Virus record (IMG/VR): IMGVR_UViG_3300032893_000735
Coordinates: 1-64,000 of that record
Direction: 5' to 3' (one strand)
Source of the DNA: a virus
DNA length: 64,000 nt
The number at the start of each line of letters is the position of its first letter. Within the stretch, counting starts at the first letter, position 1. Below the pieces are notes generated by a model. That model did no database searches. It was not told the DNA's origin and saw only the letters and a list, made by a program, of their open reading frames with translations. Position numbers and translations under genes: made by a program. Positions 27,650-55,041 of the stretch are shown piece after piece.

Positions 27650-27954
27650 TTTGCCGGTTTGACTCCCGTCGGAGCAGAGGACCGGCGGCCTCCGACCACG
27701 CGATTTGAGGACTGTTAGTAGCCTTGCGCGGGCAATATGTTAGGTTCAGGAGAGGGATTTTACTCTCATTCCCCACTAAATCGGGGTCTTAGTTAGATGA
27801 TCCTGACCTCTTCGATACGTAGGAAACACAACTACGCTCGGTGAACTATTGCCGCCGAAGCCACATTAGATGCTCCGGTTTCTCCTGCAAGAGCGGATGA
27901 TTTGTGGGCAGAGGTTGCAGCCTTCTGCTTTTTGTCACCCCTTTAATCGGCAAA
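27650..27954 (-). ncRNA. Putative large structured ncRNA (~305 nt) with an internal tRNA-like domain
   Basis: Closing stem TTTGCCGATT/AACCGGCAAA; GGCAATA/TATTGCC, GTGGCTT/AGGCTAC; no credible ORF; downstream of a promoter. Confidence 0.4.
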
Positions 27955-28037
27955 ACTTGGGAGCCTGACATCGTTCCGCTTCGGCTCCCTAAATCGCCGG
28001 GAAACGATAAAAACCGGCGAACTAAACAACTAAAAAC

Positions 28038-28534: not shown

Positions 28535-28700
28535 AAGATTCCTTTTCCAGACCTTCGATGAAAGTGAGGAGGTTTCGGGCGAGGACCGTCTGGCCGTCCT
28601 CGTACCCGTCGTAATAATCGGGGGAGGCGTCGGAAATATCATCGACGCAGAAATCGCGGGTGCTAAGTTCGGACATCCAGGTGGTTAGTTTAGAGAGCAT
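28506..28700 (-). CDS. Hypothetical protein
   Basis: Coupled to the upstream HNH gene; GGAGG RBS. Confidence 0.55.
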   Translation of the reverse strand: MLSKLTTWMSELSTRDFCVDDISDASPDYYDGYEDGQTVLARNLLTFIEGLEKESYARNETAEP

Positions 28701-29230
28701 TATGCGGCCTCCTTGAGTTGGGCGTCCATCCAGTCTGCTATGCGTCGGTGTTGTTCGGCTGTGCCTTCGTTCTTAATCCTATTTGCTTTGTATGAAATAA
28801 CTGCAACATTGCCAGGAACATAACCTAGTTCTGGAAGTATTCTGTCAAGGCTCGGGGAACTGTCTCTGTCTTTCATGTCCCCGAACTCTAGCTTAATTCC
28901 CAAGATCGGACAAAATTCCGGAATCACAATGTCCTCTTGTGTTATCGTACATTTGACTCCTGACTTCTTGCAACGTTGTTTGGCCAGTTTCAGAAGACCT
29001 CTTTCGGGGTTTTCTTTCAGAGACTTTTTCATCTGCTCCATGATTCTTAAAGAATGTTCAGCATAATATTGATTCTGAACTTTTCTGACCTCTTCATGGT
29101 TGGCGGCGTATCGTTCTCGATCTCGTTGGCGAGTACATTCTAGGCACAACGCAGTCCTACCACTTAATTTCTTGCCAAACTCTTCTATGGGTTTTTCTAC
29201 CCCACACTTCTTGCAAATCTTAGTTTTCAT
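28700..29230 (-). CDS. HNH-like homing endonuclease
   Basis: CKKCGVEK; CPILG...SPSLDRI.PELGYVPGNV.VIS..AN..K. Confidence 0.85.
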   Translation of the reverse strand: MKTKICKKCGVEKPIEEFGKKLSGRTALCLECTRQRDRERYAANHEEVRKVQNQYYAEHSLRIMEQMKKSLKENPERGLLKLAKQRCKKSGVKCTITQEDIVIPEFCPILGIKLEFGDMKDRDSSPSLDRILPELGYVPGNVAVISYKANRIKNEGTAEQHRRIADWMDAQLKEAA

Positions 29231-29317
29231 TTTGGCTCATCTCCACATGAGGTTTAGGTCTCCGGGGACCGTGGTGGAGCACGATCCCCTTCAACCGTTG
29301 ATTCGAATCTGACTACA

Positions 29318-29346
29318 AGACTATCACGATATTTTGTGTTTGTCAA
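29318..29346 (-). promoter_or_regulatory. sigma70 promoter for the HNH gene
   Basis: TTGACA-N17-TAGTCT with extended TG. Confidence 0.65.
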
Positions 29347-29376
29347 GAGTTATTTTCGAATATGTCAATGACGACC

Positions 29377-32300
29377 CTAGCTGCTGGAAGTCTCTGATTG
29401 CAAACGTCTTAGCGTCATAGTGCTGCCAGGACGTAGCGTATTTGTGTACCTGCTCAGACTCCCTTCGGTCAGAGAGTCTTGTTTGTTACAGTCCATTTTC
29501 TGGACAGGGTAGATCATTTCTGTCTACCTCTCATGCTTCTTATTCGCATGAGGACGGACTATCGCATACTCTTTCGAGTCCCTCTCGCTTAGTCTCTCAC
29601 GGCGCCTTTCGGCTTCCGCCTTGTTCCCATTCACAGGATTCAAGTCGATCAGAGAAGGTTTAGACAACGCCATCAGGAACAACGTTGTAGCTGACCCCTG
29701 TTGCTACATAAGGTTAGACGGTGGACGGGTCATGCTGCTTTAAATCCACCGATTTGACGAGCCGGGTCTGATACTGAACCCTGCTCGGGTGCTGACTGGA
29801 TAAAGAGCTTCGACGTTTGTTACTGTCCATTTTCTGGACGGGCAGATCGTTTCTTGTTCCGTCTGCCTCTCTATGTCGCCATAGAGTTCGGACCATCTCA
29901 TCACCCTCAAAAGAGGGGCGCGGTATATGGCCTCTGCACGTTCCTGATTTCTCAGGCTTCGCTCAGGATTGTCTACGAGAGAGTTTCCCTGAATTAGCCG
30001 CGTGTTCGACAGCAGTTACCCGCTGAAGCTACAAGCAATATAGTTCTTTGATCCGTCATTGGGGTTCTTCCCGCGTATGTTACTCATTCTAAACAACTTA
30101 GAACGGGATGAATCATTTCTGTTCATCTCACTTGGTTACTATTCCCAAGTGTCCAGACTATTGCATCGCCCACAAAATGGACGCCACTTCGCTTAGTCGT
30201 TCACGGTGCTTTTCAGCTTCCGCCTCGTTGGCATTTCAGCGTTCGAGTCAATCAGAAGTGGTTTTCCAACGCAGATTACGCTGCGTGGTCCCCAGAGTTA
30301 AGGAAAACAGAGAAGATCGCGTCATCTCCAAAGATATACGTATTGTACAGTTATGTTACTCATTCTAAATGACTTAGAACGGGCTAGTGTATTTCTACCT
30401 AGCTCTGCATGTCGCCATGCAGCTCGGAGCACATCATCATCCTTTTCAGGAGCGCCGTCTATGCTCTCTACACACTTCCTGCTTCCAGGTTTGGCTCGGT
30501 ATTGTCTCAGAGAGATGTCCACCGAATTAGCGGCGTTATTCAAGAAGGATTACTCCTTCAGGCTACTAGACTTTCAGGTCCATAGGTATTTCCGGAGATC
30601 GTCACTGTAGGCGCAGTGCTGGTTTGTTTGAACGTAACACCCGCGAACGAAATGGTATCTTCGTTCCCAGGGAGGTCCATCAGCATACTGGCCTTGCTCG
30701 GGTCGCGCTTGAGGATATCCGTGAGGCCGTTGAACGAGGTATCGTTCAGGACATCGCGGACCACGTTCGGATGGATGACTCCGCCGAACTTGTTGTCCAC
30801 CAGCGGACGAGCGTTAACGCTAACCAGCGACTGAGCAGCCGACCGGATGTTATTCGCGGTCAGATACGAGCCGTTAGCAAGCTGAGAGTTGACCAAGCTG
30901 TCAACCGCAACTGCCGAGTCAGCGGTAATCTGGACAAGGCTGTTGAGGGTGAGGGCTAGGCGGTAGTTGAGTTCGTTTGCGAGGTTCTGCAAAAGACCCG
31001 GATCATCGATTGCGACATCGAGTGCCAGATCTGAACTGTTGATAAAATCGGCGTATTGGCCGCGTAGATGTTTTGGTTATCGATGTCACCATCGTAACTC
31101 TCTCATAGTCTCCTACGAGTTCGGGCTCTATCATCTTGTCCATTATTCAGACAAGTTCGGCATATTAGTCTCTATGGGTTCTGGTTTCCCAGTCTTCCCT
31201 CGGTATTGCCTCTTGGAGGTGTTCACCGATATAGCCGAATTTTACTACCACCGACGTTGCCGACATGGTAGCAACTATTTTGTTACTAGATTCAGAAATA
31301 GGAGAACCGCATTTGAGTTTAGGAGTCTAGCATCACTGCTAGATCGCGCCCGACATCACTGTCGGGATCGGACTCTATCATGCCCTCTTCTTCAAGAGGT
31401 CTCGGTGTATTAGCCTCTGAGGAGATTCCTCGAAAATTTAATTTCGCCATCTTCTCGAAGTAGTCAAGTTTCTGCTGCTTAGTCATGCTGTGGTTATTTC
31501 TAATCCACTCCAGCAGGAGAATAGCACGTTCTCTTTTAACTATAAGATACGGCAAGATCGCTAGGAGTTTGATTTCTCTCTGTTTTCGACCCGCTAATCC
31601 TCTAGCTTCAGACATCCTCCATGTCCCTTCGTCTCGGTTATCTTCCTTACGTTTTGACGTAGAGAAGGTTCCTCCGAAGCGGGACATTATCCAAGGAAAC
31701 ACAGTGTTGTCTGTGTTAGAGATACGAACATTTGAAGTATAAGCGCCGTTGCCCTTCTTCTTGCGCTTATCTATAGAGAAACTTCCTTCCGCGTCGATCA
31801 TACCGGCTAAATAAGCCCAATCTAATTTTGTAGGCTCAACCGGAATTATAGATTCTCTGACTACTTTTTTAGAAACAGGAACAAATGCGCCATTCGCTGT
31901 CTGCAAAGACCACATCAAATCATTTCGCCCTTCTGGATTCCTTTCGGAAAACATGGACAAGAATTGGTGCGATATATTTGCCTGCTTCTGTTTAAGAACG
32001 ATGTAAGGGAGTAGATTTCGAACAATGTCTCGACTGGACGTATACCAAGCATATTTTTGCTTTCGATTACCTTCTGTGGGTAATTTTCTCCACATGCCCC
32101 CAAACACCTGTACTAACCACTTCATAAGTGGCCTGTGGGAGTTGTAGACGTAAAGGGTGAATTGGTGCCCAGTTCCCTCTACTGATCGTATGCAAAAACT
32201 GCCGTCTCCGTCAATGAGACCCGCCAAATATGCCCATCTCTTTGGGCTGATTTTATCTTTATCCCTCAAGGAATTTTCCTCCGTCTTGTCTAGTCCTGCC

Positions 32301-33003
32301 GCCAGATATTAACGGATTTGACCGAGTTTAAGGACCGCAAGTGGTTTGTTTCCAATAACATGCGGCACGGTCCCTTCCGCGGCCTGATTCAAATTGGCCG
32401 CCAGAAGTGCGTAGGTATAGACAGTTTGTTTTTGGTTGACCGCATCTCTGCGGACTCGCTCTCATGGTTTCCCAAGAGTTCAGGCTGTGTCTTCAGTCCA
32501 TTCTGGACTGCCCGGCATGTCAGTCGTTCGGGAGCCTATTTCTAGGTTTCCTCGGCGTTGCCCTGTTCATTTATCATACTATCACGCCTGATAGTACGCG
32601 TCAACAGGGTTTTCGTCGATATAGTCGGGTTTGAATTCAGCGCTTTACCACTGAATCTGGTTGCCCTGCCGAAGCGGGAGCGGACGTTGCTTTGTCATGC
32701 TCAAGAACGGCGTCTGGGCTTTGAGGTTAGGGACTGCTTCGCGTTCATCAATGTGTTTTGGGTACTAGCATCTCTGCTAGTTCGCTCTGCATATTCCTAT
32801 GCAGTTCAGGCCGTGTCTTCAGTCCATTTTTCGGACTGTCTGGCGTCTCGGTCGTTACGGAGCCTATTTCTAGGTTTCCTCGAAGTTGCCCGGTCTGGGC
32901 CTCCTTCGATATAGCCAGATTTGAATTCACCAAGATTTTAGTGAATAGCTACCAAGTTCGGAAGCGCCCCGGATGTAACAATTGATGCAGGAGAGTAACT
33001 CAT
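29377..33003 (-). CDS. Major capsid protein (N4-gp56-like), 10 exons: 33003-32940, 32748-32650, 32421-32367, 31309-31265, 31062-30582, 30347-30301, 30073-30040, 29810-29744, 29697-29682, 29452-29377; 984 nt, 327 aa
   Basis: Joined exons give one stop-free frame: MSYSPASIVTSGALPNLVAIHYEREAVPNLKAQTPF...AAEGTVGSPISES...IGQYADFINSSDL...GVIHPNV...YIFGDDAIFSVFLGKNP...SDPARQIGGWVSYNVRYTNTLRP...SSS*. Follows portal and scaffold; every junction is U|intron...G|. Confidence 0.9.
29453..29681 (-). ncRNA. Group I intron 9 (229 nt)
   Basis: P1 ACAACGU/GCGUUGU; P10 CCUG/CAGG; canonical P7 GACUA/UAGUC. Confidence 0.88.
29698..29743 (-). ncRNA. Core-less 46-nt mini-intron (intron 8)
   Basis: P1 CGGUGGAU/GUCCACCG, P10 UGACCC/GGGUCA, terminal G; removal gives G-G-W-V-S-Y-N, retention gives an in-frame UGA. 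Confidence 0.75.
29811..30039 (-). ncRNA. Group I intron 7 (229 nt)
   Basis: P1 CUAU/GUAG; P7 GGCCA/UGGUC; ends GUAACAAACGUCG. Confidence 0.85.
30074..30300 (-). ncRNA. Group I intron 6 (227 nt)
   Basis: P1 UUCCU/GGGGA; canonical P7 GACUA/UAGUC; ends GUAACAUACG. Confidence 0.88.
30348..30581 (-). ncRNA. Group I intron 5 (234 nt)
   Basis: P1 CUAU/GUAG; P7 GAGCA/UGCUC; ends GUAACAUAACUG. Confidence 0.85.
31063..31264 (-). ncRNA. Group I intron 4 (202 nt)
   Basis: P1 CUACCAU/GUGGUAG; GAGACUA core; terminal G. Confidence 0.85.
31310..32366 (-). mobile_element. Group I intron 3 (1057 nt) carrying a LAGLIDADG endonuclease
   Basis: P1 GGACCGU/GCGGUCC; P7-like GAGGCUA...GAGUCCG; terminal G restores the V-G-S frame. 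Confidence 0.88.
31319..32269 (-). CDS. Double-motif LAGLIDADG homing endonuclease (intron-encoded)
   Basis: YLAGLIDGDGSF and YLAGMIDAEGSF; GGAGG RBS; C-terminus overlaps the intron core. Confidence 0.92.
   Translation of the reverse strand: MRDKDKISPKRWAYLAGLIDGDGSFCIRSVEGTGHQFTLYVYNSHRPLMKWLVQVFGGMWRKLPTEGNRKQKYAWYTSSRDIVRNLLPYIVLKQKQANISHQFLSMFSERNPEGRNDLMWSLQTANGAFVPVSKKVVRESIIPVEPTKLDWAYLAGMIDAEGSFSIDKRKKKGNGAYTSNVRISNTDNTVFPWIMSRFGGTFSTSKRKEDNRDEGTWRMSEARGLAGRKQREIKLLAILPYLIVKRERAILLLEWIRNNHSMTKQQKLDYFEKMAKLNFRGISSEANTPRPLEEEGMIESDPDSDVGRDLAVMLDS
32422..32649 (-). ncRNA. Group I intron 2 (228 nt)
   Basis: P1 AUUCAGU/GCUGAAU; core very similar to intron 1; terminal G. Confidence 0.85.
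32749..32939 (-). ncRNA. Group I intron 1 of the capsid gene (191 nt)
   Basis: P1 AUUCACU/GGUGAAU with U.G at the splice site; core-like CUAUAUCG...GAGGAAAC...GACCG...CGGCCUG; terminal G. Confidence 0.85.
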
Positions 33004-33021
33004 AGGTTACCTTTGTGTTGG

Positions 33022-34221
33022 TTAGTTAGAGCGCCGACTCTGGGCGCGATGGCGGAGCATTTCAGCCCACAACTTCTGGTGCTGCTCGTCCGACATGTTG
33101 TCCAGGTCCTCGACTGAGGGCGCGTTGGGAGTGTCGGGAGTCCTGACGGGTGTTACGTCATTCCTTCCGATTCCTGTAGCCGCTCTCGGGCGCACCACCT
33201 GACTCACAATCCGTGGATCGGGGCGCGGCGCAGGTGCCGGTTCGACATCTTGAACCTTTACCGGCGGAGGTGTTTTGGGTTGCCGTTTCACAGGAGCTTG
33301 CAGCATAAGTCCATCACTGTTAAGATCCTCGAAGGCTTCCTCAAGATTTTCGACGGTATAAACTCCCGCCGATACAAGCTGGTCGTAGATGCTGTACGCA
33401 TTCTCTAAACTTACTGTCTGACCTAGCTTAAACTTTGCAATCCACCGGATTAGCTGTCGGTGGTTTTGGGCACCTTGATTATCAGGGTAATAATCAGGGG
33501 TGTTAGCCAAAAATGTTTTGTTGACCATTTCCGCCGTCAGTTGGTTGCTGGCGTATTCTGCCTTCTGCGAACCCTGTTGGGCGAGTGATACTAGTTGCTC
33601 AATGGTCAATCCAGTCTTCTTCTGGAATAGCGTATCAAGAGCGAGAGCCGGGTCCGACTCCAACTGCGTCTTGATCTCAAAAACTTCGTCTGCCGTAAGC
33701 TGGCGGTTCTGTGGCGTCGGCACGTCCATTTTCTGGACAGCAGGTGCAGGAGTCTTCGCGAATTTCAACTTCGCGTTCTGCTCGCGGATCTTCTTAGTCG
33801 CGTTAGCCTGAGCCTTGAGCAAATTAGCGATCAATCCGTCCTTCGTCTTACCCCAAAATACCTGCGGACTTCCGCCAGTTGGACTGATGATCGTGCCCTT
33901 CCACTGGCCCTTTTCCTTTTCGGTAATCAACTGTGTGCCGTCTTCGAGTTCGGTTACAGTAGGCTCGTCAGGCTCAGGAGCGGGGGCAGGTTCCGGTTCC
34001 GGCTCGGGCTTATCTTCGAGGTTCGGATGATCTTCAACGACTTCTGGCTTCATGCCGGGATGCGCGTCTAGAGCCGGATCTACGAACTGCTCTTGGTTAT
34101 CCGGTTCGACCAAATCGGGGTCTCGGAGGTCTGCGTAATTCGCGCCCCAGTCTACGTTGTTTGCGAAAGGATCAACCGATCCATCAGGGTTAAGCAACCA
34201 CGGGTCTGTTACGTTTGACAT
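33022..34221 (-). CDS. Capsid scaffolding-like protein
   Basis: Acidic, Pro-rich, directly upstream of the capsid gene. Confidence 0.65.
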   Translation of the reverse strand: MSNVTDPWLLNPDGSVDPFANNVDWGANYADLRDPDLVEPDNQEQFVDPALDAHPGMKPEVVEDHPNLEDKPEPEPEPAPAPEPDEPTVTELEDGTQLITEKEKGQWKGTIISPTGGSPQVFWGKTKDGLIANLLKAQANATKKIREQNAKLKFAKTPAPAVQKMDVPTPQNRQLTADEVFEIKTQLESDPALALDTLFQKKTGLTIEQLVSLAQQGSQKAEYASNQLTAEMVNKTFLANTPDYYPDNQGAQNHRQLIRWIAKFKLGQTVSLENAYSIYDQLVSAGVYTVENLEEAFEDLNSDGLMLQAPVKRQPKTPPPVKVQDVEPAPAPRPDPRIVSQVVRPRAATGIGRNDVTPVRTPDTPNAPSVEDLDNMSDEQHQKLWAEMLRHRAQSRRSN

Positions 34222-35550: not shown

Positions 35551-38500
35551 TTACAGAAGACTACCAAAACCTACTCCGCTAGTGTTCGGTGATCCAGTTA
35601 GTTCTTCTGGTTCGACTGCTCTCTTAAAGGATTCTCTCAACACGTCACGACTCGCACGGGCTATGTTCTCCTGGTCAGCCAACTCCTGCGCTTGCTGGAA
35701 CTTCTGTTGTTGCAACTGTGCTTGAGCTTGTGCCTGCGCTTGTATCTTCTGGTTCATCTGACCACCCTGCGACTGGGCCTGCTGACGGGCCAAATCTTGC
35801 GGGGTCATGTCAGTAATTATGTCGGACATACTCTTGCATTCCGCTGCTTCGAACCAGAGATGGAGAAGTTCAGTAACATCTATTTTCTTACCTTCAAGAG
35901 CCAGAGAGGATATGATTTCCGGATTGGCCAGCGTTTGCGAGAGCATCGGAAGGGCCTGATTCAGGTTTCTCCGAGTTTGCATTTTCGACCCAGCTAGGAT
36001 GTCAAACTTAACTTTCGCGTTCAGAATATCAACAAGATCCCCGCCGTTCTCAACATACTCATGTTTCAGTTCCTCGCTCATGATGAACTGGAGTTGAGAA
36101 AGTGGGAGCATCATTCGGTTCATTTCAGCCATATCATAAAGAAACGGCACAATAATCTGATTCGCCAGCTTGTCCACGCATTCGGAAATCACGTTGGACG
36201 CGCCCTGAGTCAGCGCCTGCGCCCCAGCGGAACTACGGGCCATATTGGAATGTCCGCTGGCCCCCGCGATACCCTGGGAGGTAATCGAGTTGTTCCCCGA
36301 CACTTCGCCCACCCTAGCTTGCGACTGAGTGAACAAATAACTGGCTTCTTGGACAGGCTCCCCGAACTTGAGCGGTTCCAGATCGCCCTTAGCGTCTACT
36401 TCAATAATCCGATTCGGACCAATTCGGATACTCTGCGTCGGTACCGACTTACCGCGAACCCGAAGCATCGGAGCGTTCAGCTTCAGGTTTGCGATGTTCA
36501 TAACCAGATTCGTGATGCCAGTTTGGACACGCTGTTCGGTTCCGATCGTGTTATGGGTGAGAATGCAGTCGTCAGTTACATACAGATGGTCAGGAGAATC
36601 GACCATGATGCACTGACACTGTTTCTGAGATACTAACTCTACTGACTTGATGAAGCGGGCCGGAAGATACTTTGTTCTAGGTACGTGCTTCTCCACTTTC
36701 CTAGTCAATCGGAAAGGATTAAAGGTAACACCTATAGTCAGAATAAACTGTCTGTCAGCAGGTTTTGCGAGACCTGTGTAATTCTTTTCCCAACCTTCTT
36801 TCCATCTCTTGGTGACGACAGTTACAGAACCTCCCAAAGACTGAACCAGAAATTTCACGTCATCCCGAAGTCTTTCTGAAGTTGTATAGAACTGACAGGC
36901 ACCGTTGCTCAGCGCAGAACCGTCTGTATCCATCAGACCAGCAAGAATTGCTTTTCTTTGAGCGACAGATCCGAACTTGTAGACATCGGGAATAAACTTG
37001 TAACGTGATGTGCAATTTACTCCGAGGTCACGAGTAACCCTACGGATTACATTACACTTTCCATCAAGAGAAGTAAACTTATAGTCATATTGACTTTGCG
37101 GAATTTTAGTGATCTTGGTATTTTCGGGCAGGACTTCGTTAATCCGATCTATGAGTTCTGGATCGGCAGTAGTAAATTTGGGAGTTTCGGTAGTCATACC
37201 CCCGTCGCCAAGAAGGAGCCCCATCAGGTACGGATCAAGAGGCTGTACCTTCTCTTCAAATTCTACTGGAGAAACTATAGGTATCCTGTACCGGCATTGG
37301 TGGTGGCCAGATTTTGCTTTTAAATCTCCCCAAATCTCCTGAAGTTCCAGAGTTCTAGTTTTCCACCCACGCTTCTGTTTGATTTTTGTCTTGGTTTGTA
37401 CTGTCCACAAATGTTCTTTGCAGCACTCAGTAGAAGAGCCGTCCGAAAAATGGACACGATAAACATCTTTCTCGCCTTGCGGATATATCCCAGTAACACA
37501 GTATGGCTTTCCATCAGAACCGATAACCTTGGTTCCAACTTCAACTTCTCCCATTGTAGTCCAACCATCTGGGGTCAAAATCTTAGCGTCAAGAGGCTGG
37601 GAGCGACCGAGCCCCAAACTCCAAAAACTTTGCGGAGAATCCCACCACCCAATCGAGTAAAACGGGATCTTGCCGTAGATATTCTTGTCGTTGTAAATTA
37701 CAAGTTTCTTCTGGAGGACTACGATGTACGTGTTGTTATCCCACCGTTCGAGGACTTCAAGCGGCTGCTGGAAAGGATCGATGGTCGTCTTTTCCCACGG
37801 AGAATCTGCCCGAGCGTCCCAAAGAGGATTACGCCCGCCTTCTTGCTGAGGGTTTGATTCGACAGGTTCTACAGGGGGGAGGAACAATTCAAGGAGTTTT
37901 TCACGTGACGGGATGTTGTAGCCTTCCCGTTCGCGGAGTCTGTCCAGGTCTTCCCAAGTCATGTACCGGCGGCGGATAACATACTTCGCTTTTCGAATAT
38001 CAGGAACGTCCAGACCGGGATCGACCAAGATTTCTCGCAGATTGACGATATGCTCGAATGTGGGCCTGTCTACGACCTCTTCTATTTCTTCGACTTCTAA
38101 TTCGTCATCCGTGATACTTGTAGCAGGCGCTCCGGGGATTGAACTGGGGATTACGATAGGAGGATTCTTGCGCTTGATGATTTTACGGGTACGAGTAAAT
38201 TTTTCCCATCCGGCTTGGAAGATGGCCGTGCCGAACAGCAGCATGTTCATGGTTCCCAGACGGATCTCTTCGCGGAAATTTATATCTTCTAATTGGTATC
38301 CGAGAAGTGCGGAAACGGCTCGGGCAGCTTGCGCCGAAGTTCCGCTTCGTTCTTGCGTCATAAAAGGAGGGTTCTCATAAAACAAACCGGCAAGAACTTG
38401 AGGGGTAAGACCGTTTACCGCAGTTGCAACCGTGTAGAAGTTTACAGAGGCCGCTTCCATCTGGGTTCCGGGCCAAAAATTCGGAGTCATGACCGCGTTG

Positions 38501-38697
38501 TAGAGGTCGCGGGCATTGTTCCAACCCATTAAATACTCGCGACGACGTTCTCCGCTGTCGGCCTTTTCCGCGTCCTGTAGTACAAGTTTTAGCGGAGCTG
38601 AATCAGACGAAGCCCAGGATTGATCGTTAAGAAACGAGAGCGCCTCTTCTTTTGTGAGGTCTTGGTAAGCGTTAACCTCTGGCTGATTTAGTATCAT
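35551..38697 (-). CDS. Portal protein containing an intein
   Basis: Podovirus-type portal features (LFGTAIFQAGW, ILVDP, IPFY, Gln-rich tail); lies downstream of terminase. Confidence 0.85.
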   Translation of the reverse strand: MILNQPEVNAYQDLTKEEALSFLNDQSWASSDSAPLKLVLQDAEKADSGERRREYLMGWNNARDLYNAVMTPNFWPGTQMEAASVNFYTVATAVNGLTPQVLAGLFYENPPFMTQERSGTSAQAARAVSALLGYQLEDINFREEIRLGTMNMLLFGTAIFQAGWEKFTRTRKIIKRKNPPIVIPSSIPGAPATSITDDELEVEEIEEVVDRPTFEHIVNLREILVDPGLDVPDIRKAKYVIRRRYMTWEDLDRLREREGYNIPSREKLLELFLPPVEPVESNPQQEGGRNPLWDARADSPWEKTTIDPFQQPLEVLERWDNNTYIVVLQKKLVIYNDKNIYGKIPFYSIGWWDSPQSFWSLGLGRSQPLDAKILTPDGWTTMGEVEVGTKVIGSDGKPYCVTGIYPQGEKDVYRVHFSDGSSTECCKEHLWTVQTKTKIKQKRGWKTRTLELQEIWGDLKAKSGHHQCRYRIPIVSPVEFEEKVQPLDPYLMGLLLGDGGMTTETPKFTTADPELIDRINEVLPENTKITKIPQSQYDYKFTSLDGKCNVIRRVTRDLGVNCTSRYKFIPDVYKFGSVAQRKAILAGLMDTDGSALSNGACQFYTTSERLRDDVKFLVQSLGGSVTVVTKRWKEGWEKNYTGLAKPADRQFILTIGVTFNPFRLTRKVEKHVPRTKYLPARFIKSVELVSQKQCQCIMVDSPDHLYVTDDCILTHNTIGTEQRVQTGITNLVMNIANLKLNAPMLRVRGKSVPTQSIRIGPNRIIEVDAKGDLEPLKFGEPVQEASYLFTQSQARVGEVSGNNSITSQGIAGASGHSNMARSSAGAQALTQGASNVISECVDKLANQIIVPFLYDMAEMNRMMLPLSQLQFIMSEELKHEYVENGGDLVDILNAKVKFDILAGSKMQTRRNLNQALPMLSQTLANPEIISSLALEGKKIDVTELLHLWFEAAECKSMSDIITDMTPQDLARQQAQSQGGQMNQKIQAQAQAQAQLQQQKFQQAQELADQENIARASRDVLRESFKRAVEPEELTGSPNTSGVGFGSLL
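36550..37602 (-). mobile_element. 351-aa intein with a LAGLIDADG domain (Ser1, WCT signature of class 3)
   Basis: GR|SQPLDAKILTPDGW...CCKEHLW...LLGDG...LAGLMDTDG...CQCIMVD...ILTHN|T. Confidence 0.92.
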
Positions 38698-51467: not shown

Positions 51468-51549
51468 TGGAGCGGAAGACGAGATTCGAACTCGCATGTC
51501 TAAGACGGTTGCTTGGAAGGCAACGGCTCTACCACTGAGCGACTTCCGC
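51468..51549 (-). tRNA. tRNA-Gly(TCC) with an extended variable arm
   Basis: Cloverleaf, loop CTTCCAA, TTCGAAT, CCA. Confidence 0.85.
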
Positions 51550-51554
51550 GAACT

Positions 51555-51632
51555 TGGTCCCCGAAGACGGACTTGAACCGCCCACCTAGCGGTTATCGAC
51601 CGCTTGCTCTTGTCAAGATGAGCTATTCGGGG
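51555..51632 (-). tRNA. tRNA-Ile(GAT), C33
   Basis: AGCGG-TCGATAA-CCGCT; CCA. Confidence 0.8.
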
Positions 51633-51633
51633 A

Positions 51634-51707
51634 TGGTGCCGAATAAGAGATTCGAACTCCTGTCTTCTGGGTGTAGACCAGAGGCCCTGCCTTTAGGCGA
51701 ACTCGGC
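51634..51707 (-). tRNA. tRNA-Val(TAC), C33
   Basis: TCTGG-TCTACAC-CCAGA; CCA. Confidence 0.8.
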
Positions 51708-51712
51708 AAAAC

Positions 51713-51787
51713 TGGTGATCGCAGACAGAATCAAACTGTCATATCAGGCTTCGGAGACCTGCGCTCTGTTCTTTGAGCTATGCGACC
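51713..51787 (-). tRNA. tRNA-Arg(CCG)
   Basis: Loop CTCCGAA; CCA. Confidence 0.8.
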
Positions 51788-51791
51788 AAAC

Positions 51792-51867
51792 TGGAGATCC
51801 CGCCGAGACTCAAACTCGGGTCTGAAGTTTAGGAAACTACTGCTCTATTCTCCTGAGCTACGGGACC
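51792..51867 (-). tRNA. tRNA-Arg(CCT)
   Basis: Loop TTCCTAA; CCA. Confidence 0.8.
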
Positions 51868-51873
51868 GAAACT

Positions 51874-51949
51874 TGGAACTCCTGGAGGGAGTCGAACCCC
51901 CGACCTAGACTTTAGAAAAATCCCGCTCTTCCGTCTGAGCTACAGGAGC
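51874..51949 (-). tRNA. tRNA-Arg(TCT)
   Basis: Loop TTTCTAA; CCA. Confidence 0.85.
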
Positions 51950-51953
51950 AAAC

Positions 51954-52028
51954 TGGTAGACCGCCAGAGACTCGAACTCTGTCCAAGACGCGGTAAAAGC
52001 ACGTTATGCACCCTCACACTCACGGTCC
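51954..52028 (-). tRNA. tRNA-Lys(TTT)
   Basis: Loop CTTTTAC; CCA. Confidence 0.75.
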
Positions 52029-52034
52029 AAAACT

Positions 52035-52110
52035 TGGTGCGTCCAGAGGGAAACGATCCCCCGACCTTCTCATTAAGAGTGAGTTGCTCTACCAACTGAG
52101 CTATGGACGC
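52035..52110 (-). tRNA. tRNA-Lys(CTT)
   Basis: Loop CTCTTAA; CCA. Confidence 0.85.
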
Positions 52111-52111
52111 A

Positions 52112-52204
52112 TGGTAGGCGATGAGTGAGTTGAACACTCCCGTTGCGCTAATCTGGCGCTTTCCCGAGTCTATAAGTCTCAGCCGCACACCGATGCTATC
52201 GCCC
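52112..52204 (-). tRNA. Atypical tRNA, anticodon TAT (Ile), with a long variable arm
   Basis: Loop CTTATAG; V-arm GCGC-CAGATTA-GCGC; CCA. Confidence 0.7.
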
Positions 52205-52211
52205 GTAAACT

Positions 52212-52282
52212 TGGTGCCAAAGCGGGGAATCAAACCCCTCATTCCGCTTTATGAGGGCAGATGCCGAATCATCGGCCTTGGC
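52212..52282 (-). tRNA. tRNA with CAT anticodon (Met/Ile2), degenerate
   Basis: Loop CTCATAA; short D region; CCA. Confidence 0.6.
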
Positions 52283-52287
52283 AAAAC

Positions 52288-52362
52288 TGGCGGGAGATGT
52301 AGGATTTTAACCCACAAGTTCCGGGTTGGAGCCGGACAGTTTGACATTGAGCTTAATCTCCC
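52288..52362 (-). tRNA. tRNA-Trp(CCA)
   Basis: TCCGG-CTCCAAC-CCGGA; CCA. Confidence 0.75.
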
Positions 52363-52363
52363 G

Positions 52364-52438
52364 TGGAACCCGGTAGCGGAGTTCAACCGCTGTTTCGAAG
52401 TTCGTAGCTTCGCGCCTTATGCGTTAGACGAACCGGGC
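52364..52438 (-). tRNA. tRNA-Arg(ACG)
   Basis: CGAAG-CTACGAA-CTTCG; CCA. Confidence 0.8.
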
Positions 52439-52447
52439 ATTTTAAAA

Positions 52448-52521
52448 TGGTCGGGGTAGAGGTAATCGAAACCTCGTCTTATGATCCCAAATCATAGGCT
52501 TGACCTTCCAGCTATACCCCG
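52448..52521 (-). tRNA. tRNA-Pro(TGG)
   Basis: TATGA-TTTGGGA-TCATA; CCA. Confidence 0.85.
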
Positions 52522-52522
52522 A

Positions 52523-52598
52523 TGGTGGGCAGTCGCAGAATCGAACTGCGCCGTGAGGCTTTTCAGACCTCCGTTCCAACCATGCAAACTCACTACCC
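52523..52598 (-). tRNA. tRNA-Phe(GAA)
   Basis: Loop CTGAAAA; CCA. Confidence 0.8.
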
Positions 52599-52710
52599 AA
52601 AACTTATTCGGTTTTATCTGCATCATCATTCTCGGGCATATAAGAGGTTAGTCAAGCTAACGTAGGATGCTTGCAATGGCAGAGCGGGAAACCGAAAAAC
52701 ACCTTTGTAT

Positions 52711-52786
52711 TGGTGGAGCATGTCGGATCTGCCCCGACTGCCTCCGCGTTGCAGGCGCGGCGCTCTCCTAATTGAGCTAATGCCCC
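52711..52786 (-). tRNA. tRNA-Ala(TGC), C33
   Basis: G3.U70 pair; loop CCTGCAA; CCA. Confidence 0.85.
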
Positions 52787-53367
52787 TACTCGGGGTGCCT
52801 CCATTTGTAAGGCCCGTCCCGATTATTATAGTGGTCCAAATCATGACAATTAGGGCATAAGAGTTCCAAATTGTCTATCGTATTATTTGTTCGATCTCTA
52901 TCCTTATGGTGAACTTGCAAAATTTCCGGATGAAGATCATACCCACATCTGTTACAAATCTTATCGTAAGTTCGAAGTGCTATCGCTCTGTAGCTGTATC
53001 TTCCATCGCCATAATGACTTGGTCTGAGAATTTCATTATGCTTTCCCATTCTTTGGGCGTCATCTTTGCAGATTCTAGAACAAAATCGGAGTCCGCTCTT
53101 CGATTTCTTGAGATTAGATTGACTTCTGTAAAAGATCAACCCACAGTTGTCACACTTTAGTTCATGTATTTTAGACGGATTGGATGCTCGGAAACATTCA
53201 GGGCTACAGTATCTCCTACCTGCATGTTTTGGGGCATAGAAACTTTTTCCGCAAAAAGTACAGAACTGCAAAAACAACTTACGCTGCTTTCCATCATAGA
53301 TAGTTGAAACAATTACCTCTTCCACGTTTAGTCCTCTTCTGGGGGCGGGACCTACGCGAATCATCAA
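52786..53367 (-). CDS. HNH endonuclease with Zn fingers, inserted in the tRNA array
   Basis: Multiple CxxC; QVHHKDRDRTNNTIDNLELLCPNCH. Confidence 0.85.
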   Translation of the reverse strand: MMIRVGPAPRRGLNVEEVIVSTIYDGKQRKLFLQFCTFCGKSFYAPKHAGRRYCSPECFRASNPSKIHELKCDNCGLIFYRSQSNLKKSKSGLRFCSRICKDDAQRMGKHNEILRPSHYGDGRYSYRAIALRTYDKICNRCGYDLHPEILQVHHKDRDRTNNTIDNLELLCPNCHDLDHYNNRDGPYKWRHPE

Positions 53368-53440
53368 TCCACCACCTGTAGAATTTCTATGCTACAGGAC
53401 ATTTACCACGCTTGAGTTTAGCATCCTCAAACACTTATTT

Positions 53441-53520
53441 TGGGGTGGCCGGAGGAAGTTGAATCCTCAAGAAGCAAATTCCACAGACTTGTCCGACATA
53501 CCCGTAGTCGGCACGGCCAC
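53441..53520 (-). tRNA. tRNA-His(GTG), no encoded G-1
   Basis: Loop CTGTGGA; C73; CCA. Confidence 0.75.
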
Positions 53521-53547
53521 ACTTGTTGTCCATTATCTGGACGAAAC

Positions 53548-53629
53548 TGGAGCCTAGTGAGGGACTCGAACCCTCGCGTTGGAATGGCAGTTTACAAAAC
53601 TGCTGCTGTCGCCGCTGAGCCAACTAGGC
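53548..53629 (-). tRNA. tRNA-Thr(TGT), enlarged variable loop
   Basis: GCAGT-TTTGTAA-ACTGC; CCA. Confidence 0.85.
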
Positions 53630-53675
53630 ATTTCACGTCCGCACTTAGGGAGGCGGAACTCCAACTTACAAAGAA

Positions 53676-53704
53676 ATACTACCACAACATTTCTTAATTG
53701 TCAA
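53676..53704 (-). promoter_or_regulatory. Internal sigma70 promoter of the tRNA array
   Basis: TTGACA-N17-TAGTAT with extended TG. Confidence 0.7.
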
Positions 53705-53712
53705 GCGAAATC

Positions 53713-53787
53713 TGGAGCCGAATAGCGGCCTCAAACCGCTGTCTCATGCGTACCAAGCATGTGCTCTTTCTGTTGAGCTAATTCGGC
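53713..53787 (-). tRNA. tRNA-Thr(GGT)
   Basis: Loop TTGGTAC; CCA. Confidence 0.8.
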
Positions 53788-53788
53788 T

Positions 53789-53862
53789 TGGAGCCCAATT
53801 GGGGAATTCAACCCCAGTCTTCTCTGTACGAAGGAGATGTACTGGCACTGTACTAATCGGGC
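53789..53862 (-). tRNA. tRNA-Thr(CGT)
   Basis: Loop TTCGTAC; CCA. Confidence 0.75.
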
Positions 53863-53868
53863 ATTAGT

Positions 53869-53943
53869 TGGCTCCGCCGCGAGGTTACGATCCCCGTTTC
53901 CCGAGTTCAAAGCCCGGTGCCTTACCGATTAGACGACGGCGGA
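53869..53943 (-). tRNA. tRNA-Gln(TTG)
   Basis: Loop CTTTGAA; U1-A72; CCA. Confidence 0.8.
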
Positions 53944-53949
53944 ATAACT

Positions 53950-54028
53950 TGGGGAGGTAGACGGGAATTGAACCCGCGTAACACGGTGTGAAAGACCGTG
54001 GACAAAAACCAGCGTTGTCGGCTACCTC
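53950..54028 (-). tRNA. tRNA-Glu(TTC)
   Basis: ACGGT-CTTTCAC-ACCGT; CCA. Confidence 0.75.
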
Positions 54029-54045
54029 AAACTTTTTATCTAAAA

Positions 54046-54132
54046 TGGCGGAAGTCGGAGGTAACGATCCCCCATCCCTTTCGGGAGCCACGGTTTTCAA
54101 AACCGTTTGTCTCACCATCGACGGCGACTTCC
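54046..54132 (-). tRNA. tRNA-Ser(TGA)
   Basis: Loop TTTGAAA; long V-arm; G73. Confidence 0.85.
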
Positions 54133-54136
54133 AAAC

Positions 54137-54224
54137 TGGCGGTTGGTTGAGAAATCGAATCCCCGTGCCTTACGACACTCCGACTGCTTTCGAAACAGTT
54201 TGCGAACCTTTCGCGGAACCAACC
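54137..54224 (-). tRNA. tRNA-Ser(CGA)
   Basis: Loop TTCGAAA; long V-arm; G73. Confidence 0.75.
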
Positions 54225-54374
54225 TTAAACTAATTCGCGGAGAGAATTTCGGCGTCAGTACAATGTTTCTTTCGCTGGGCAGTTTCTCTCTGCCTCGGAT
54301 CGGGTTCTAGACCCCGTTAGCTAGTACCTGAAAAGCATCCCTCGTCTGCACACGACCTATTTCTAGCGCGAAAC

Positions 54375-54460
54375 TGGCGGAAAGCACAGGAGTTTAACCT
54401 GATACCTTTCAGTACGCATCCGCTTCCAACGGAGCCTCGGAACGTCCGAGTTTACTTTCC
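54375..54460 (-). tRNA. tRNA-Ser(GGA)
   Basis: Loop TTGGAAG; long V-arm; G73. Confidence 0.75.
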
Positions 54461-54461
54461 A

Positions 54462-54550
54462 TGGCGGAGAAGGTGGGTGCTGACCCCACGCGGCTCTTTC
54501 AAGTCCACTGGTTTAGCAAACCAGCCCGTTTACCGTTCCGGCACTTCTCC
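54462..54550 (-). tRNA. tRNA-Ser(GCT)
   Basis: Loop TTGCTAA; long V-arm; G73. Confidence 0.85.
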
Positions 54551-54628
54551 GTAAAACTTGGTTGAGAACGTGTGCTCTGGTCGGGTTGATTAAGCACGTT
54601 TACCGCAGCCGACCAGCGTTCTCAAACT

Positions 54629-55040: not shown

Positions 55041-55041
55041 A

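What the first reader, a model, noticed from the sequence alone, without database searches (positions are those of the whole stretch)
29377..33003. Major capsid gene split into 10 exons by 9 introns, with exons as short as 16 nt
Seen: exon sizes are 64, 99, 55, 45, 481, 47, 34, 67, 16 and 76 nt (984 total), and about 73% of the locus is intron. All nine 5' sites end in U with a P1 U.G pair, all 3' sites end in G, and the frame is preserved throughout. Established: phage group I introns usually occur singly or in small numbers, mostly in nucleotide-metabolism, polymerase, lysin or terminase genes. Inference: nine sequential splicing events on the most abundant late mRNA is an unusual load and may act as a timer or a Mg2+/GTP-sensitive gate. 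Gene callers will miss this capsid gene.
Basis: partly seen in the sequence, partly recalled or inferred. Interest (0 to 1): 0.88.

Follow-up and report, generated by a model that had tools for sequence, protein, structure and literature searches.

The report
Phage capsid gene with nine introns
The only major capsid gene of this ~106-kb wetland phage is cut into ten pieces by eight genuine self-splicing (group I) introns and one 46-base mini-intron that keeps the splice-site guides but has no catalytic core; this is the heaviest intron load I could find for a phage gene, and selfish mobile introns explain it better than a timer.

Summary
Observation confirmed. On the minus strand, 33003..29377, ten exons (64, 99, 55, 45, 481, 47, 34, 67, 16, 76 nt) join into a 327-aa protein. 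It aligns without gaps and is 96% identical to uninterrupted homologues. Those homologues have an HK97/N4-type capsid fold. No second capsid gene exists in the 105.8-kb genome.

Eight interruptions are true group I introns of three sequence families. Evidence is Rfam hits, my own covariance models, and strong compensatory covariation for P3-P8 with the P3/P7 pseudoknot. One carries a LAGLIDADG endonuclease gene. All eight ribozyme cores detected in the genome lie in this gene.

The ninth interruption (46 nt) has P1, P10 and a terminal G but no core. It recurs in 11 other variants from related phage contigs, and its guide covaries with the exon codons. Wherever the downstream DNA is on the contig, a full-size intron follows 16-53 nt downstream, so it probably borrows that ribozyme.

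The timer/gate idea has no support. Close relatives encode near-identical capsids from intron-free genes, and introns come and go at about 20 sites, many with homing endonucleases.

No RNA data were available, so splicing itself is inferred. This scan has already reported core-less mini-introns in capsid genes of at least eight other phage genomes.

The parts
32940..33003 (-). Exon 1 (64 nt; Met1 to first base of codon 22)
   Evidence: tblastn aa 1-21; junctions and joined translation
32749..32939 (-). Intron 1, 191 nt, group I, family A, no ORF
   Evidence: Rfam Intron_gpI 44.5 bits, E 3.5e-9. Own model R3 115.7 bits. P1 AUUCACU/GGUGAAU, 7 bp. Core covariation.
32650..32748 (-). Exon 2 (99 nt)
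32422..32649 (-). Intron 2, 228 nt, group I, family A, sister of intron 1
   Evidence: Rfam 34.7 bits, E 3e-6. R3 96.6 bits. blastn to intron 1 E 2e-27. P1 8 bp.
32367..32421 (-). Exon 3 (55 nt)
31310..32366 (-). Intron 3, 1057 nt, group I carrying a homing-endonuclease gene
   Evidence: P1 9 bp. The core at 31366-31472 is hit by model R3, which was not trained on it (43 bits, E 3.6e-8). Rfam gives 19.4 bits. Homologous introns sit at the same site in L060, L064, L071, L074 and L075.
31319..32269 (-). LAGLIDADG endonuclease ORF (316 aa, TTG start behind GGAGG). Its last ~50 codons overlap the 3' half of the intron-3 ribozyme.
   Evidence: Pfam LAGLIDADG_1 1.5e-11 with two stretches; ORF list; sequence
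31265..31309 (-). Exon 4 (45 nt)
   Evidence: The 5' end of the Rfam hit for intron 4 wrongly ran over this exon.
31063..31264 (-). Intron 4, 202 nt, group I, family A
   Evidence: Rfam 43 bits, E 1e-8. R3 131.5 bits, R2 64.8 bits. P1 10 bp, P10 4 bp.
30582..31062 (-). Exon 5 (481 nt), the only piece visible as an ORF
   Evidence: 144-aa ORF; tblastn aa 89-248, 94% identity
30348..30581 (-). Intron 5, 234 nt, group I, family C
   Evidence: No Rfam hit. blastn to intron 7 E 2e-14. Core covariation with 24 relatives. R3, not trained on it, 52.7 bits.
30301..30347 (-). Exon 6 (47 nt)
30074..30300 (-). Intron 6, 227 nt, group I, family B
   Evidence: No Rfam hit. Core P3-P8 with P3/P7 pseudoknot is supported by covariation: 99.3% of cells paired, 21/29 pairs with double changes. 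R1 114.6 bits.
30040..30073 (-). Exon 7 (34 nt)
29811..30039 (-). Intron 7, 229 nt, group I, family C
   Evidence: Rfam Intron_gpI 61 bits, above the gathering score of 50; covariation
29744..29810 (-). Exon 8 (67 nt; ends with the U of the Trp298 codon)
29698..29743 (-). Intron 8: 46-nt core-less mini-intron. Its parts are a P1 loop, a contiguous guide at 29732-29719 (UGACCC pairing with exon 9, GUCCACCG pairing with exon 8), a 21-nt tail and terminal G 29698.
   Evidence: P1 8 bp with U.G, P10 6 bp. No match to any core model. 11 further variants with covarying guide.
29682..29697 (-). Exon 9 (16 nt, GG-V-S-Y-N-GU). Every base lies in a guide pairing: bases 1-6 in P10 of intron 8, bases 7-12 in a stem with the mini-intron tail, bases 10-16 in P1 of intron 9.
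   Evidence: tblastn VSYNV; pairings; 6 synonymous changes versus L009
29453..29681 (-). Intron 9, 229 nt, group I, family B; the proposed helper core for intron 8
   Evidence: R1 113.3 bits; covariation; P1 ACAACGU/GCGUUGU 7 bp
29377..29452 (-). Exon 10 (76 nt including the TAG stop)
   Evidence: tblastn aa 304-327, 100% identity
28700..29230 (-). Free-standing endonuclease VII/HNH-type gene just downstream of the capsid gene. It is a possible trans-acting mobility factor; that role is inferred only.
   Evidence: phrog_3322 endonuclease 6.4e-35, phrog_1035 endonuclease VII 4e-26

Best explanation
This is the phage's single major capsid gene (N4-gp56/HK97 type). It is colonised by nine intervening sequences that must be removed from the mRNA to give the 327-aa protein.

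Eight are autonomous group I introns of three related sequence families:
- Family A: introns 1, 2, 3 and 4.
- Family B: introns 6 and 9.
- Family C: introns 5 and 7.

Each has a P1 guide with a U.G pair at the 5' splice site, a P3-P8 core with the P3/P7 pseudoknot and a bulged P7, P9 hairpins and a terminal G. Intron 3 carries a LAGLIDADG homing endonuclease gene.

They most likely accumulated by homing, and by copying within the gene, among co-infecting relatives. The capsid gene offers many conserved target sites. They are selfish passengers, not a regulatory device.

The ninth element is a 46-nt internal-deletion derivative of a family-B-like intron. It kept only the substrate side of the reaction:
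- P1.
- A contiguous P10 guide.
- A tail that pairs with the next exon.
- The terminal G.

I infer that it is excised by ordinary group I chemistry using the catalytic core of intron 9, which begins 16 nt downstream on the same transcript. In that case one ribozyme serves two introns.

Shown: the exon map, the coding constraint, the group I cores, the guide covariation and the constant neighbour. Inferred: that splicing happens, who catalyses mini-intron removal, and the order of events.
For: Exon map and product:
- Gapless, 313/327 identical to an uninterrupted homologue.
- 187/206 differences to an intron-free relative's gene are synonymous, and all 108 in the eight small exons are.
- No other capsid gene in the genome.
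- Capsid identity: PHROG major head 1.2e-15; TIGR04387 E 3e-10; the model of the 96%-identical homologue matches phage N4 capsid 9e99_A at E 4e-8 and many other HK97-fold capsids.

Group I cores:
- Rfam RF00028 hits: intron 7 at 61 bits, above the gathering score; introns 1, 4 and 2 at 44.5, 43 and 34.7 bits (E 3.5e-9 to 3e-6); intron 3 at 19.4 bits.
- Covariation on alignments with relatives: family B 99.3% of cells paired and 21/29 pairs with double changes; family C 96.5% and 13/23; family A 97.4% and 14/27. In each, 0 of 500 shuffles reach the observed value and slid controls pair only 26-48%.
- Models cross-detect introns they were not trained on: intron 3 core 43 bits; introns 5 and 7 by the family-A model.

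Mobility:
- Intron-free relatives; about 20 insertion sites.
- LAGLIDADG ORFs in the long introns at five of the sites sampled and in intron 3.
- Sister copies within the gene.

Mini-intron:
- P1 8 bp and P10 6 bp, the best guide of all nine.
- 12 distinct variants of 40-59 nt in independent contigs. The guide follows synonymous changes in the Gly296/Gly297/Val299 codons: pair 10-36 is AU 6, UG 4, GC 2; pair 30-90 is GC 5, AU 3, UA 2. There are 14 double-change cells against 4.7 expected.
- In all 11 variants with downstream sequence (the twelfth, L089, stops at its contig end), a family-B core starts after a 16-53-nt exon, at three different partner sites: 303, 310 and about 316.
- Directly after the guide it keeps UCUAA(A)CCUU, the same as intron 9's joiner plus the start of P3. 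It ends GUAGCAACAG, like the family's GUAACA..G ends.
Against: - No RNA evidence. No RNA run holds the locus, so splicing of any of the nine is inferred.
- Introns 5-7 have short P1 helices of 4-5 bp that are not significant on their own.
- Four of the five Rfam hits are below the gathering score.
- The window is a metagenome assembly. An independent Logan contig confirms only 30787-33100 (introns 1-4) as one piece. The array of introns 5-9 rests on the IMG/VR contig and on similar arrays in other contigs (L061, L064, L072).
- For the mini-intron, the always-present neighbour could partly reflect shared descent. The association is 11/11 versus 8 of at least 22 alleles without it.
- Small fungal rDNA introns with only P1, P7 and P10 are reported to self-splice (PMC3160393), so a helper may not be strictly required.
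Confidence: 0.75

Rival explanations
1. The nine introns are an evolved timer or Mg2+/GTP-sensitive gate on late capsid synthesis.
For: All eight ribozyme cores detected in the genome sit in this one late gene. Full-length mRNA yield is the product of nine splicing efficiencies, and group I splicing needs guanosine and Mg2+ (established knowledge).
Against: - Relatives with capsids 91-97% identical to P0001 have no introns.
- Intron number and position vary freely among relatives.
- Homing-endonuclease genes ride in many of the introns.
- No conserved set of introns is shared by the family, as a regulatory device would need.
Confidence: 0.07
2. The 46-nt mini-intron is removed in trans by any free group I ribozyme in the infected cell (excised introns of the same or other transcripts), not specifically in cis by intron 9.
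For: - Engineered group I ribozymes can excise internal segments from other RNAs in trans: trans-excision-splicing (PMC2532722) and spliceozymes (PMC4094466).
- Up to eight excised ribozymes per capsid transcript would be abundant late in infection.
Against: - In all 11 variants with downstream context, a full-size intron lies 16-53 nt downstream.
- In L118 the only other intron is about 0.9 kb upstream.
- The mini-intron tail pairs with the short exon right up to the partner's P1, which places the two substrate helices side by side.
Confidence: 0.15
3. The mini-intron is a self-sufficient minimal ribozyme, like the 56-81-nt 'degenerate' group I introns of fungal SSU rDNA.
For: The fungal elements have P1, P10 and a pairing between the intron and the 3' exon, as here. 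One of them (PaSSU) is reported to self-splice in vitro (PMC3160393).
Against: - No P7-like guanosine-binding helix can be drawn in the 21-nt tail once P1, P10 and the exon-pairing stem are formed.
- The strict company of a full-size intron would be unexplained.
Confidence: 0.08
4. The locus is partly an assembly mosaic of strain variants or a decaying pseudogene, so not all nine interruptions coexist in a working gene.
For: - Introns share repeats: 32 nt at 94% between introns 5 and 6, and 41 nt at 90% between introns 7 and 9.
- These repeats break de Bruijn assemblies. Logan contigs of the source run are fragmented over 29300-30787.
Against: - Exon order, frame and junction rules are perfect.
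- The coding constraint extends over every exon.
- It is the only capsid gene in a 98%-complete genome.
- Arrays of 4-6 introns occur in independent contigs (L072, L064, L061, L050).
- The mini-intron plus intron 9 unit recurs in L166, L014 and L060.
Confidence: 0.05
5. The 46 nt are skipped by the ribosome (programmed translational bypass, as in T4 gene 60) rather than spliced.
For: The gap is about 50 nt and follows a GGA codon, with a stop codon a few codons into the gap.
Against: - The invariant Trp298 codon is split U|GG across the gap in nine of the 12 variants (window type), so a hop cannot decode it.
- There is no matching landing codon.
- Variant lengths of 40-59 nt, and guide covariation with both exons, are features of RNA splicing.
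Confidence: 0.01

Closest known systems
Staphylococcus phage Twort orf142 (three group I introns in one gene, exon skipping; Landthaler & Shub 1999, cited in PMC11878797) and Bastillevirinae DNA polymerase/terminase genes with two or three introns (PMC11878797)
   Same: Several self-splicing group I introns sit in a single phage protein-coding gene, some with homing endonucleases, separated by short exons.
   Different: Nine interruptions instead of two or three; a structural (capsid) gene; exons down to 16 nt; and one interruption lacks a ribozyme core.
crAss-like phages of the Zeta/Delta groups: the MCP gene is split into five fragments, with up to 14 introns per genome (PMC7886860). Jug phages average 18.5 introns per genome (PMC12880540).
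   Same: Phage major capsid genes can be intron targets, gene callers fragment them, and the introns are read as rampant mobile elements.
   Different: There the introns are spread over many genes and the MCP has four insertions. Here all eight cores of the genome are in the MCP gene, about one interruption per 109 coding nt, and the phage is an unrelated soil/wetland lineage (nearest isolate: Tunturiibacter phage Tunturi_3).
Small 'degenerate' group I introns (56-81 nt) of fungal nuclear SSU rDNA: Phialophora PaSSU, Porpidia, Arthonia (PMC3160393)
   Same: Tiny inserts that retain P1, P10, a terminal G and a pairing between the intron and the 3' exon while lacking most of the core.
   Different: The fungal ones are drawn with a P7 and are reported to self-splice. 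They sit in rRNA, not in a protein-coding phage gene. The phage mini-intron has no P7 and always has a full-size intron 16-53 nt downstream.
Engineered trans-excision-splicing ribozymes and 'spliceozymes' (PMC2532722, PMC4094466)
   Same: A group I core removes an internal segment from an RNA that does not itself contain the core. This is the chemistry proposed here.
   Different: Those are laboratory constructs in which the guide belongs to the ribozyme. Here the guide belongs to the mini-intron and the arrangement is natural and in cis.
Fungal mitochondrial cox1 genes packed with group I introns (for example Agaricus bisporus; from my own knowledge, not checked here)
   Same: A comparable density of group I introns in one conserved gene, many with LAGLIDADG genes, and micro-exons.
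   Different: An organellar genome with protein splicing factors, not a virulent-type phage genome whose late mRNA must be made fast and in bulk.

Membership tests
Group I intron (introns 1-7 and 9) | P1 helix between the 5' exon end and an internal guide, with U.G at the splice site | tested here: met
   All eight have it. It is 7-10 bp for introns 1-4 and 9 (p <= 0.013 by shuffling) and only 4-5 bp for introns 5-7.
Group I intron (introns 1-7 and 9) | Conserved core P3-P4-P5-P6 and P7-P3'-P8-P7' with the P3/P7 pseudoknot and a bulged P7 | tested here: met
   Covariation counts on three family alignments give 96.5-99.3% of cells paired and 13-21 pairs with double changes, with 0/500 shuffles reaching this. 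The intron 3 core is found by model R3 at E 3.6e-8.
Group I intron (introns 1-7 and 9) | Terminal guanosine at the 3' splice site | tested here: met
   All end in G. The junction is unambiguous for 7 of the 9 interruptions.
Group I intron (introns 1-7 and 9) | Score at or above the Rfam RF00028 gathering threshold | tested here: inconclusive
   Met by intron 7 only (61 bits against 50). Introns 1, 4, 2 and 3 score 44.5, 43, 34.7 and 19.4. Introns 5, 6 and 9 are not found. The Rfam model is known to miss subgroups.
Group I intron (introns 1-7 and 9) | Guanosine-dependent self-splicing | not testable with these tools
   No RNA run holds the locus.
Group I intron (46-nt intron 8) | P1 with U.G, P10, terminal G | tested here: met
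   P1 CGGUGGAU/GUCCACCG and P10 GGGUCA/UGACCC are contiguous on one guide. The guide covaries with the exons in 12 variants.
Group I intron (46-nt intron 8) | Own catalytic core (P3-P9, guanosine-binding P7) | tested here: not met
   Only 21 nt follow the guide. There is no hit with Rfam or with models R1-R3. It works like a group I substrate but is not an autonomous member.
HK97-fold major capsid protein, N4 gp56 type | Family profile match | tested here: inconclusive
   TIGR04387 gives 39.9 bits, E 3e-10, below the curated cutoff of 60. PHROG 1357 major head protein gives 1.2e-15. There is no Pfam hit. All were tested on P0001, which is 96% identical to the joined product.
HK97-fold major capsid protein, N4 gp56 type | HK97 fold | tested here: met
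   The AlphaFold2 model of P0001 (pLDDT 62, pTM 0.64, core residues 110-260 above 77) matches phage N4 capsid 9e99_A at E 4e-8, probability 1.0. 164 matches reach E <= 0.001; nearly all of those listed are HK97-fold capsids or encapsulins.
HK97-fold major capsid protein, N4 gp56 type | Position in the head module | tested here: met
   The portal gene (SU10_portal) lies at 38697-35551 on the same strand. A 399-aa Pro/Glu-rich ORF ends 19 nt before the capsid start.
LAGLIDADG homing endonuclease (intron 3 ORF) | Two LAGLIDADG domains above the Pfam threshold | tested here: met
   PF00961 gives 45.5 bits (cutoff 23.1) with two stretches, plus PF14528.
T4 gene 60-type translational bypass (for the 46 nt) | Matched take-off and landing codons, with the coding sequence intact without the gap's flanks being rejoined | tested here: not met
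   The Trp298 codon is split across the gap and there is no matching landing codon.

The most novel reading that the evidence does not exclude
The 46-nt insert is a natural helper-dependent group I intron. It is a deletion derivative that kept only the substrate helices (P1, P10, terminal G). It survives in an essential gene because the ribozyme of the next intron, 16-53 nt downstream on the same transcript, excises it as well as itself. In that case one catalytic core serves two introns. This would be a group I counterpart of non-autonomous transposons, and of the step from self-splicing to trans-assisted splicing.
Probability: 0.5. Interest if true: 0.9.

Novelty: new variant of a known kind. 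Interest (0 to 1): 0.8.

Why it matters
- **Scale.** Multiple group I introns in phage genes are known, but the published cases I could find top out at three or four per gene. Nine interruptions in 984 coding nucleotides show how far an essential, highly expressed phage gene can be colonised and still be kept under purifying selection.
- **Annotation.** Pipelines will call only a 144-aa fragment and will miss the capsid gene of a whole family of soil and wetland phages.
- **Model system.** The family offers many intron sites, both intron-free and intron-rich alleles, and homing endonucleases. That makes it a natural system for studying intron spread and phage-phage competition.
- **The mini-intron.** If it is excised by its neighbour's ribozyme, it would be, as far as I could find, the first natural non-autonomous group I intron. 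It would also be directly testable with short in vitro transcripts.

Tried and rejected
- **RNA evidence.** No RNA holder was listed for the locus. Laying the three DNA runs gave only fragmentary contigs. One contig confirms 30787-33100, and one relative's contig lacks intron 5.
- **Homology searches that found nothing.** megablast of the locus against phage records gave no match. A profile search of the capsid family against PDB sequences gave no hit. Pfam on the capsid protein gave no hit.
- **Single-sequence folding around the mini-intron.** It recovers P1, the tail-exon stems and the partner's P1, but z-scores of -0.8 to -2.3 are not significant alone. I rely on covariation instead.
- **L097.** This pattern hit has no capsid homology and was dropped as chance. 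45 of the 66 metagenome pattern hits were likewise chance.
- **A retracted claim.** I first read L118 as having the downstream intron as its only full-size intron. The family-A model then showed another intron after codon 2, about 0.9 kb upstream, so I withdrew that claim.
- **Translational bypass and an in-frame insertion** were considered and rejected. The Trp codon is split, there is an in-frame UGA, and the variant lengths are not multiples of three.
- **HSP chaining undercounts introns in relatives.** For example, L032 carries one inside a single HSP. Counts for relatives therefore come from the covariance-model hits.

Full report
**What is there**

The finding lies on the minus strand.
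- ORF listing shows only one sizeable capsid-like ORF in the stretch (144 aa, 30992-30558), plus a 316-aa ORF at 32269-31319.
- A search with the 144-aa piece among longer proteins returned more than a hundred full-length relatives of 326-330 aa. Several are named 'N4-gp56 family major capsid protein'. The best is P0001, 327 aa.
- tblastn of P0001 against the window found ten collinear pieces on the minus strand covering residues 1-327.
- After setting the junctions, the ten exons (64, 99, 55, 45, 481, 47, 34, 67, 16, 76 nt; coordinates in 'parts') join to 984 nt with a single terminal stop.
- The product aligns to P0001 without a gap and is 313/327 identical. 72.9% of the 3627-nt locus is intervening sequence.

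**Is it more than chance, and is the gene alive?**
- The genome record is 105,825 bp and is estimated 98% complete. It has no other match to the capsid protein.
- Compared codon by codon with the intron-free gene of a relative (L009), 187 of 206 nucleotide differences fall in synonymous codons.
- In the eight small exons all 108 differences are synonymous, including 6 of the 16 bases of exon 9. The joined frame, micro-exons included, has been under purifying selection.
- All nine upstream exons end in U and all nine inserts end in G. For seven junctions no shifted boundary gives the same mRNA, so this was not built in by my choice of boundaries.

**Capsid identity**
- P0001 matches PHROG 1357 'major head protein' at 1.2e-15.
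- It matches TIGR04387 at E 3e-10, which is below the curated cutoff. It has no Pfam family and no PDB sequence relative.
- An AlphaFold2 model built from 55 homologues has pLDDT 62 and pTM 0.64, with a confident core at residues 110-260.
- The model matches the phage N4 capsid protein (9e99_A, E 4e-8, probability 1.0). HK97-fold capsids and encapsulins make up nearly all of the other listed matches.
- The gene follows the portal gene and a 399-aa ORF on the same strand.

**The eight full-size introns**
- Rfam finds Intron_gpI at 29869-30050 (intron 7) with 61 bits, above the gathering score.
- With permissive thresholds Rfam also finds introns 1, 4 and 2 (44.5, 43 and 34.7 bits; E 3.5e-9 to 3e-6) and weakly the 3' part of intron 3 (19.4 bits). 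It finds nothing for introns 5, 6 and 9.
- blastn links intron 5 to 7, intron 6 to 9 and intron 1 to 2, so there are three families.
- For each family I collected homologous introns from related phage contigs, aligned the core and counted pairs for a hand-drawn group I core. The core was P3, P4, P5, P6, bulged P7 and P8, with P7 crossing P3.

| Family | Introns | Relatives | Cells paired | Pairs with changes on both sides |
|---|---|---|---|---|
| B | 6, 9 | 22 | 99.3% | 21 of 29 |
| C | 5, 7 | 23 | 96.5% | 13 of 23 |
| A | 1, 2, 4 | 7 | 97.4% | 14 of 27 |

- In each family no shuffle of 500 reaches the observed covariation. Sliding the partners by 1-3 columns drops pairing to 26-48%.
- Covariance models built from these alignments detect introns they were not trained on. 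The family-A model finds the intron-3 core at 31366-31472 (43 bits, E 3.6e-8), intron 7 (73.7 bits) and intron 5 (52.7 bits).
- Every intron has a P1 with U.G. It is statistically clear for introns 1-4 and 9, and short for introns 5-7.
- Intron 3 carries a two-domain LAGLIDADG gene (Pfam 1.5e-11). The tail of that ORF runs through the 3' half of the ribozyme and stops 9 nt before the splice site.
- None of the three models, nor Rfam, finds a group I core anywhere else in the 105.8-kb genome.

**The ninth interruption is different**

Between exon 8 (ending ...AUC GGU GGA U) and exon 9 (GG GUC AGC UAC AAC GU) lie only 46 nt (29743-29698).
- If retained, they give an in-frame UGA and a frameshift.
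- They hold one contiguous guide, UGACCC-GUCCACCG. Its 3' part pairs 8 bp with the end of exon 8, with U.G at the junction. Its 5' part pairs 6 bp with the start of exon 9. The insert ends in G.
- This is the best P1/P10 of the nine, yet only 21 nt follow the guide and no core model matches.

The same insert occurs at this site in related phages.
- I found it in viral contigs and in a pattern scan of metagenome contigs.
- There are 12 distinct variants of 40-59 nt.
- The guide tracks synonymous changes in the flanking codons: GGUGGAU/GUCCACC, GGUGGUU/GGCCACC, GGAGGGU/GCCCUCC, and GGGUC/GACCC, GGGUA/UACCC, GGGUU/AACCC.
- On an alignment, 91.6% of cells pair. There are 14 double-change cells against 4.7 in shuffles, and 0-3 when slid.
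- A further stem joins the tail of the insert to the next exon and also covaries: GUAGC/GCUAC, GUAAC/GUUAC, AUAGC/GCUAU. Where the Ser codon changes to UCU, the stem is moved wholly into the insert.
- Minimum-energy folds recover P1, these stems and the P1 of the next intron side by side.
- In the window all 16 bases of exon 9 are engaged: bases 1-6 in P10, bases 7-12 in the tail stem, bases 10-16 in P1 of intron 9.

**Who cuts it out**
- In every variant with downstream sequence (11 of 11), a full-size family-B intron begins 16-17, 38-39 or 53 nt after the insert. These are three different insertion sites: codons 303, 310 and about 316.
- Among alleles without the insert, only 8 of at least 22 distinct ones have an intron there. 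Relatedness inflates this contrast, so I treat it as suggestive.
- In L118 the only other intron is about 0.9 kb upstream.
- In four variants the bases right after the guide (UCUAA(A)CCUU) equal the joiner and first P3 bases of the neighbouring intron type. The 3' end resembles that family's GUAACA..G end.
- The simplest reading is an internally deleted copy of such an intron that lost its core and is tolerated because the neighbour's core can dock its P1 and terminal G.
- That a group I core can excise a segment from an RNA lacking a core is shown by engineered trans-excision-splicing and 'spliceozyme' ribozymes (PMC2532722, PMC4094466).
- The closest natural precedent is the set of 56-81-nt degenerate introns of fungal SSU rDNA. 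These keep P1, P7, P10 and an intron-3' exon pairing, and are reported to self-splice (PMC3160393). Here no P7 can be drawn.
- Translational bypass is excluded because the invariant Trp298 codon is split across the gap.

**Why so many introns**
- Among 80 related viral loci, some are intron-free over all 327 codons (L009-L012, 91-97% identical to P0001).
- Others carry one to six interruptions at recurrent sites: after codons about 2, 21, 30-39, 55, 73-76, 88, 99-107, 185, 230, 248, 264, 275-278, 285, 295, 298, 303, 310 and 316.
- By covariance-model hits, the richest relatives have six full-size cores (L072) or five plus a mini-intron (L050 type). The window's eight plus one is the maximum seen.
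- Long introns at several sites encode LAGLIDADG enzymes.
- A free-standing endonuclease VII/HNH-type gene sits just downstream of the capsid gene.
- This pattern fits homing and intragenic copying of selfish elements in a conserved target gene. It does not fit a conserved regulatory device, so the timer/gate idea is unsupported.

**Comparison with the literature**
- Phage genes with two or three group I introns are known: Twort orf142 and Bastillevirinae polymerase and terminase genes (PMC11878797).
- A crAss-like MCP gene is split into five fragments, with up to 14 introns per genome (PMC7886860).
- Jug phages average 18.5 introns per genome (PMC12880540).
- I found no phage gene with nine, and no description of a core-less group I mini-intron beside a helper.

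**Earlier findings of this scan**
- The scan has reported the same kind of mini-intron in capsid genes of at least eight other phage genomes.
I could not test that.

**Limits**
- There is no RNA evidence for any of the nine splicing events.
- The contig is a metagenome assembly. An independent assembly confirms only the part with introns 1-4 as one piece.
- The capsid fold was tested on a 96%-identical homologue, because the joined protein cannot be handed to the folding tool.
- The helper mechanism is an inference from anatomy, covariation and constant neighbourhood.

Noticed in passing
window 35551-38697 (-): The portal gene (SU10_portal) carries an in-frame insert with Hint and LAGLIDADG_3 domains, so it is an intein. 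The head module therefore holds both protein-level and RNA-level selfish elements.
   Followed up: partly
window 29491-29505, 29825-29839, 32822-32836 and about 25 other places: The 15-nt palindrome GTCCR-N5-YGGAC gives 40 strand-wise matches in the window against 0.08 expected. Three of the sites are hairpins inside introns: P8 of intron 1, and the last hairpin before the 3' splice site of introns 7 and 9. Relatives' introns have it too. Its function is unknown.
   Followed up: partly
window 31310-31472 (-): The last ~50 codons of the LAGLIDADG ORF of intron 3 are the same bases as P7, P8, P9 and P9.1 of its ribozyme. The stop codon lies 9 nt before the 3' splice site.
   Followed up: partly
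window 28700-29230 (-): A free-standing endonuclease VII/HNH-like gene sits directly after the capsid gene (phrog_3322, 6e-35). Similar genes follow the capsid gene in several relatives. It may mobilise the ORF-less introns in trans; I did not test this.
   Followed up: no
window 59721-59778 (+): A Twister-P5 ribozyme scores 57.3 bits against a gathering score of 37.6.
   Followed up: no
window 51471-55117 (-): An array of about 21 tRNA genes.
   Followed up: no
window 27950-28027 (-): A match to Rfam CyVA-1 RNA scores 39.6 bits, just under its gathering score of 41.4.
   Followed up: no
L118 1-285: A relative has a family-A group I intron after only 7 nt of the capsid coding sequence (AUGGCGU | intron, guide GCGCCAU). 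The first exon is the start codon plus four bases.
   Followed up: partly
alignment A5, pair 118-164 (window introns 1, 2, 4): Half of the family-A introns have an A.C opposition inside P7 where the others have G.U. This is possibly a protonated wobble next to the guanosine-binding pair.
   Followed up: no
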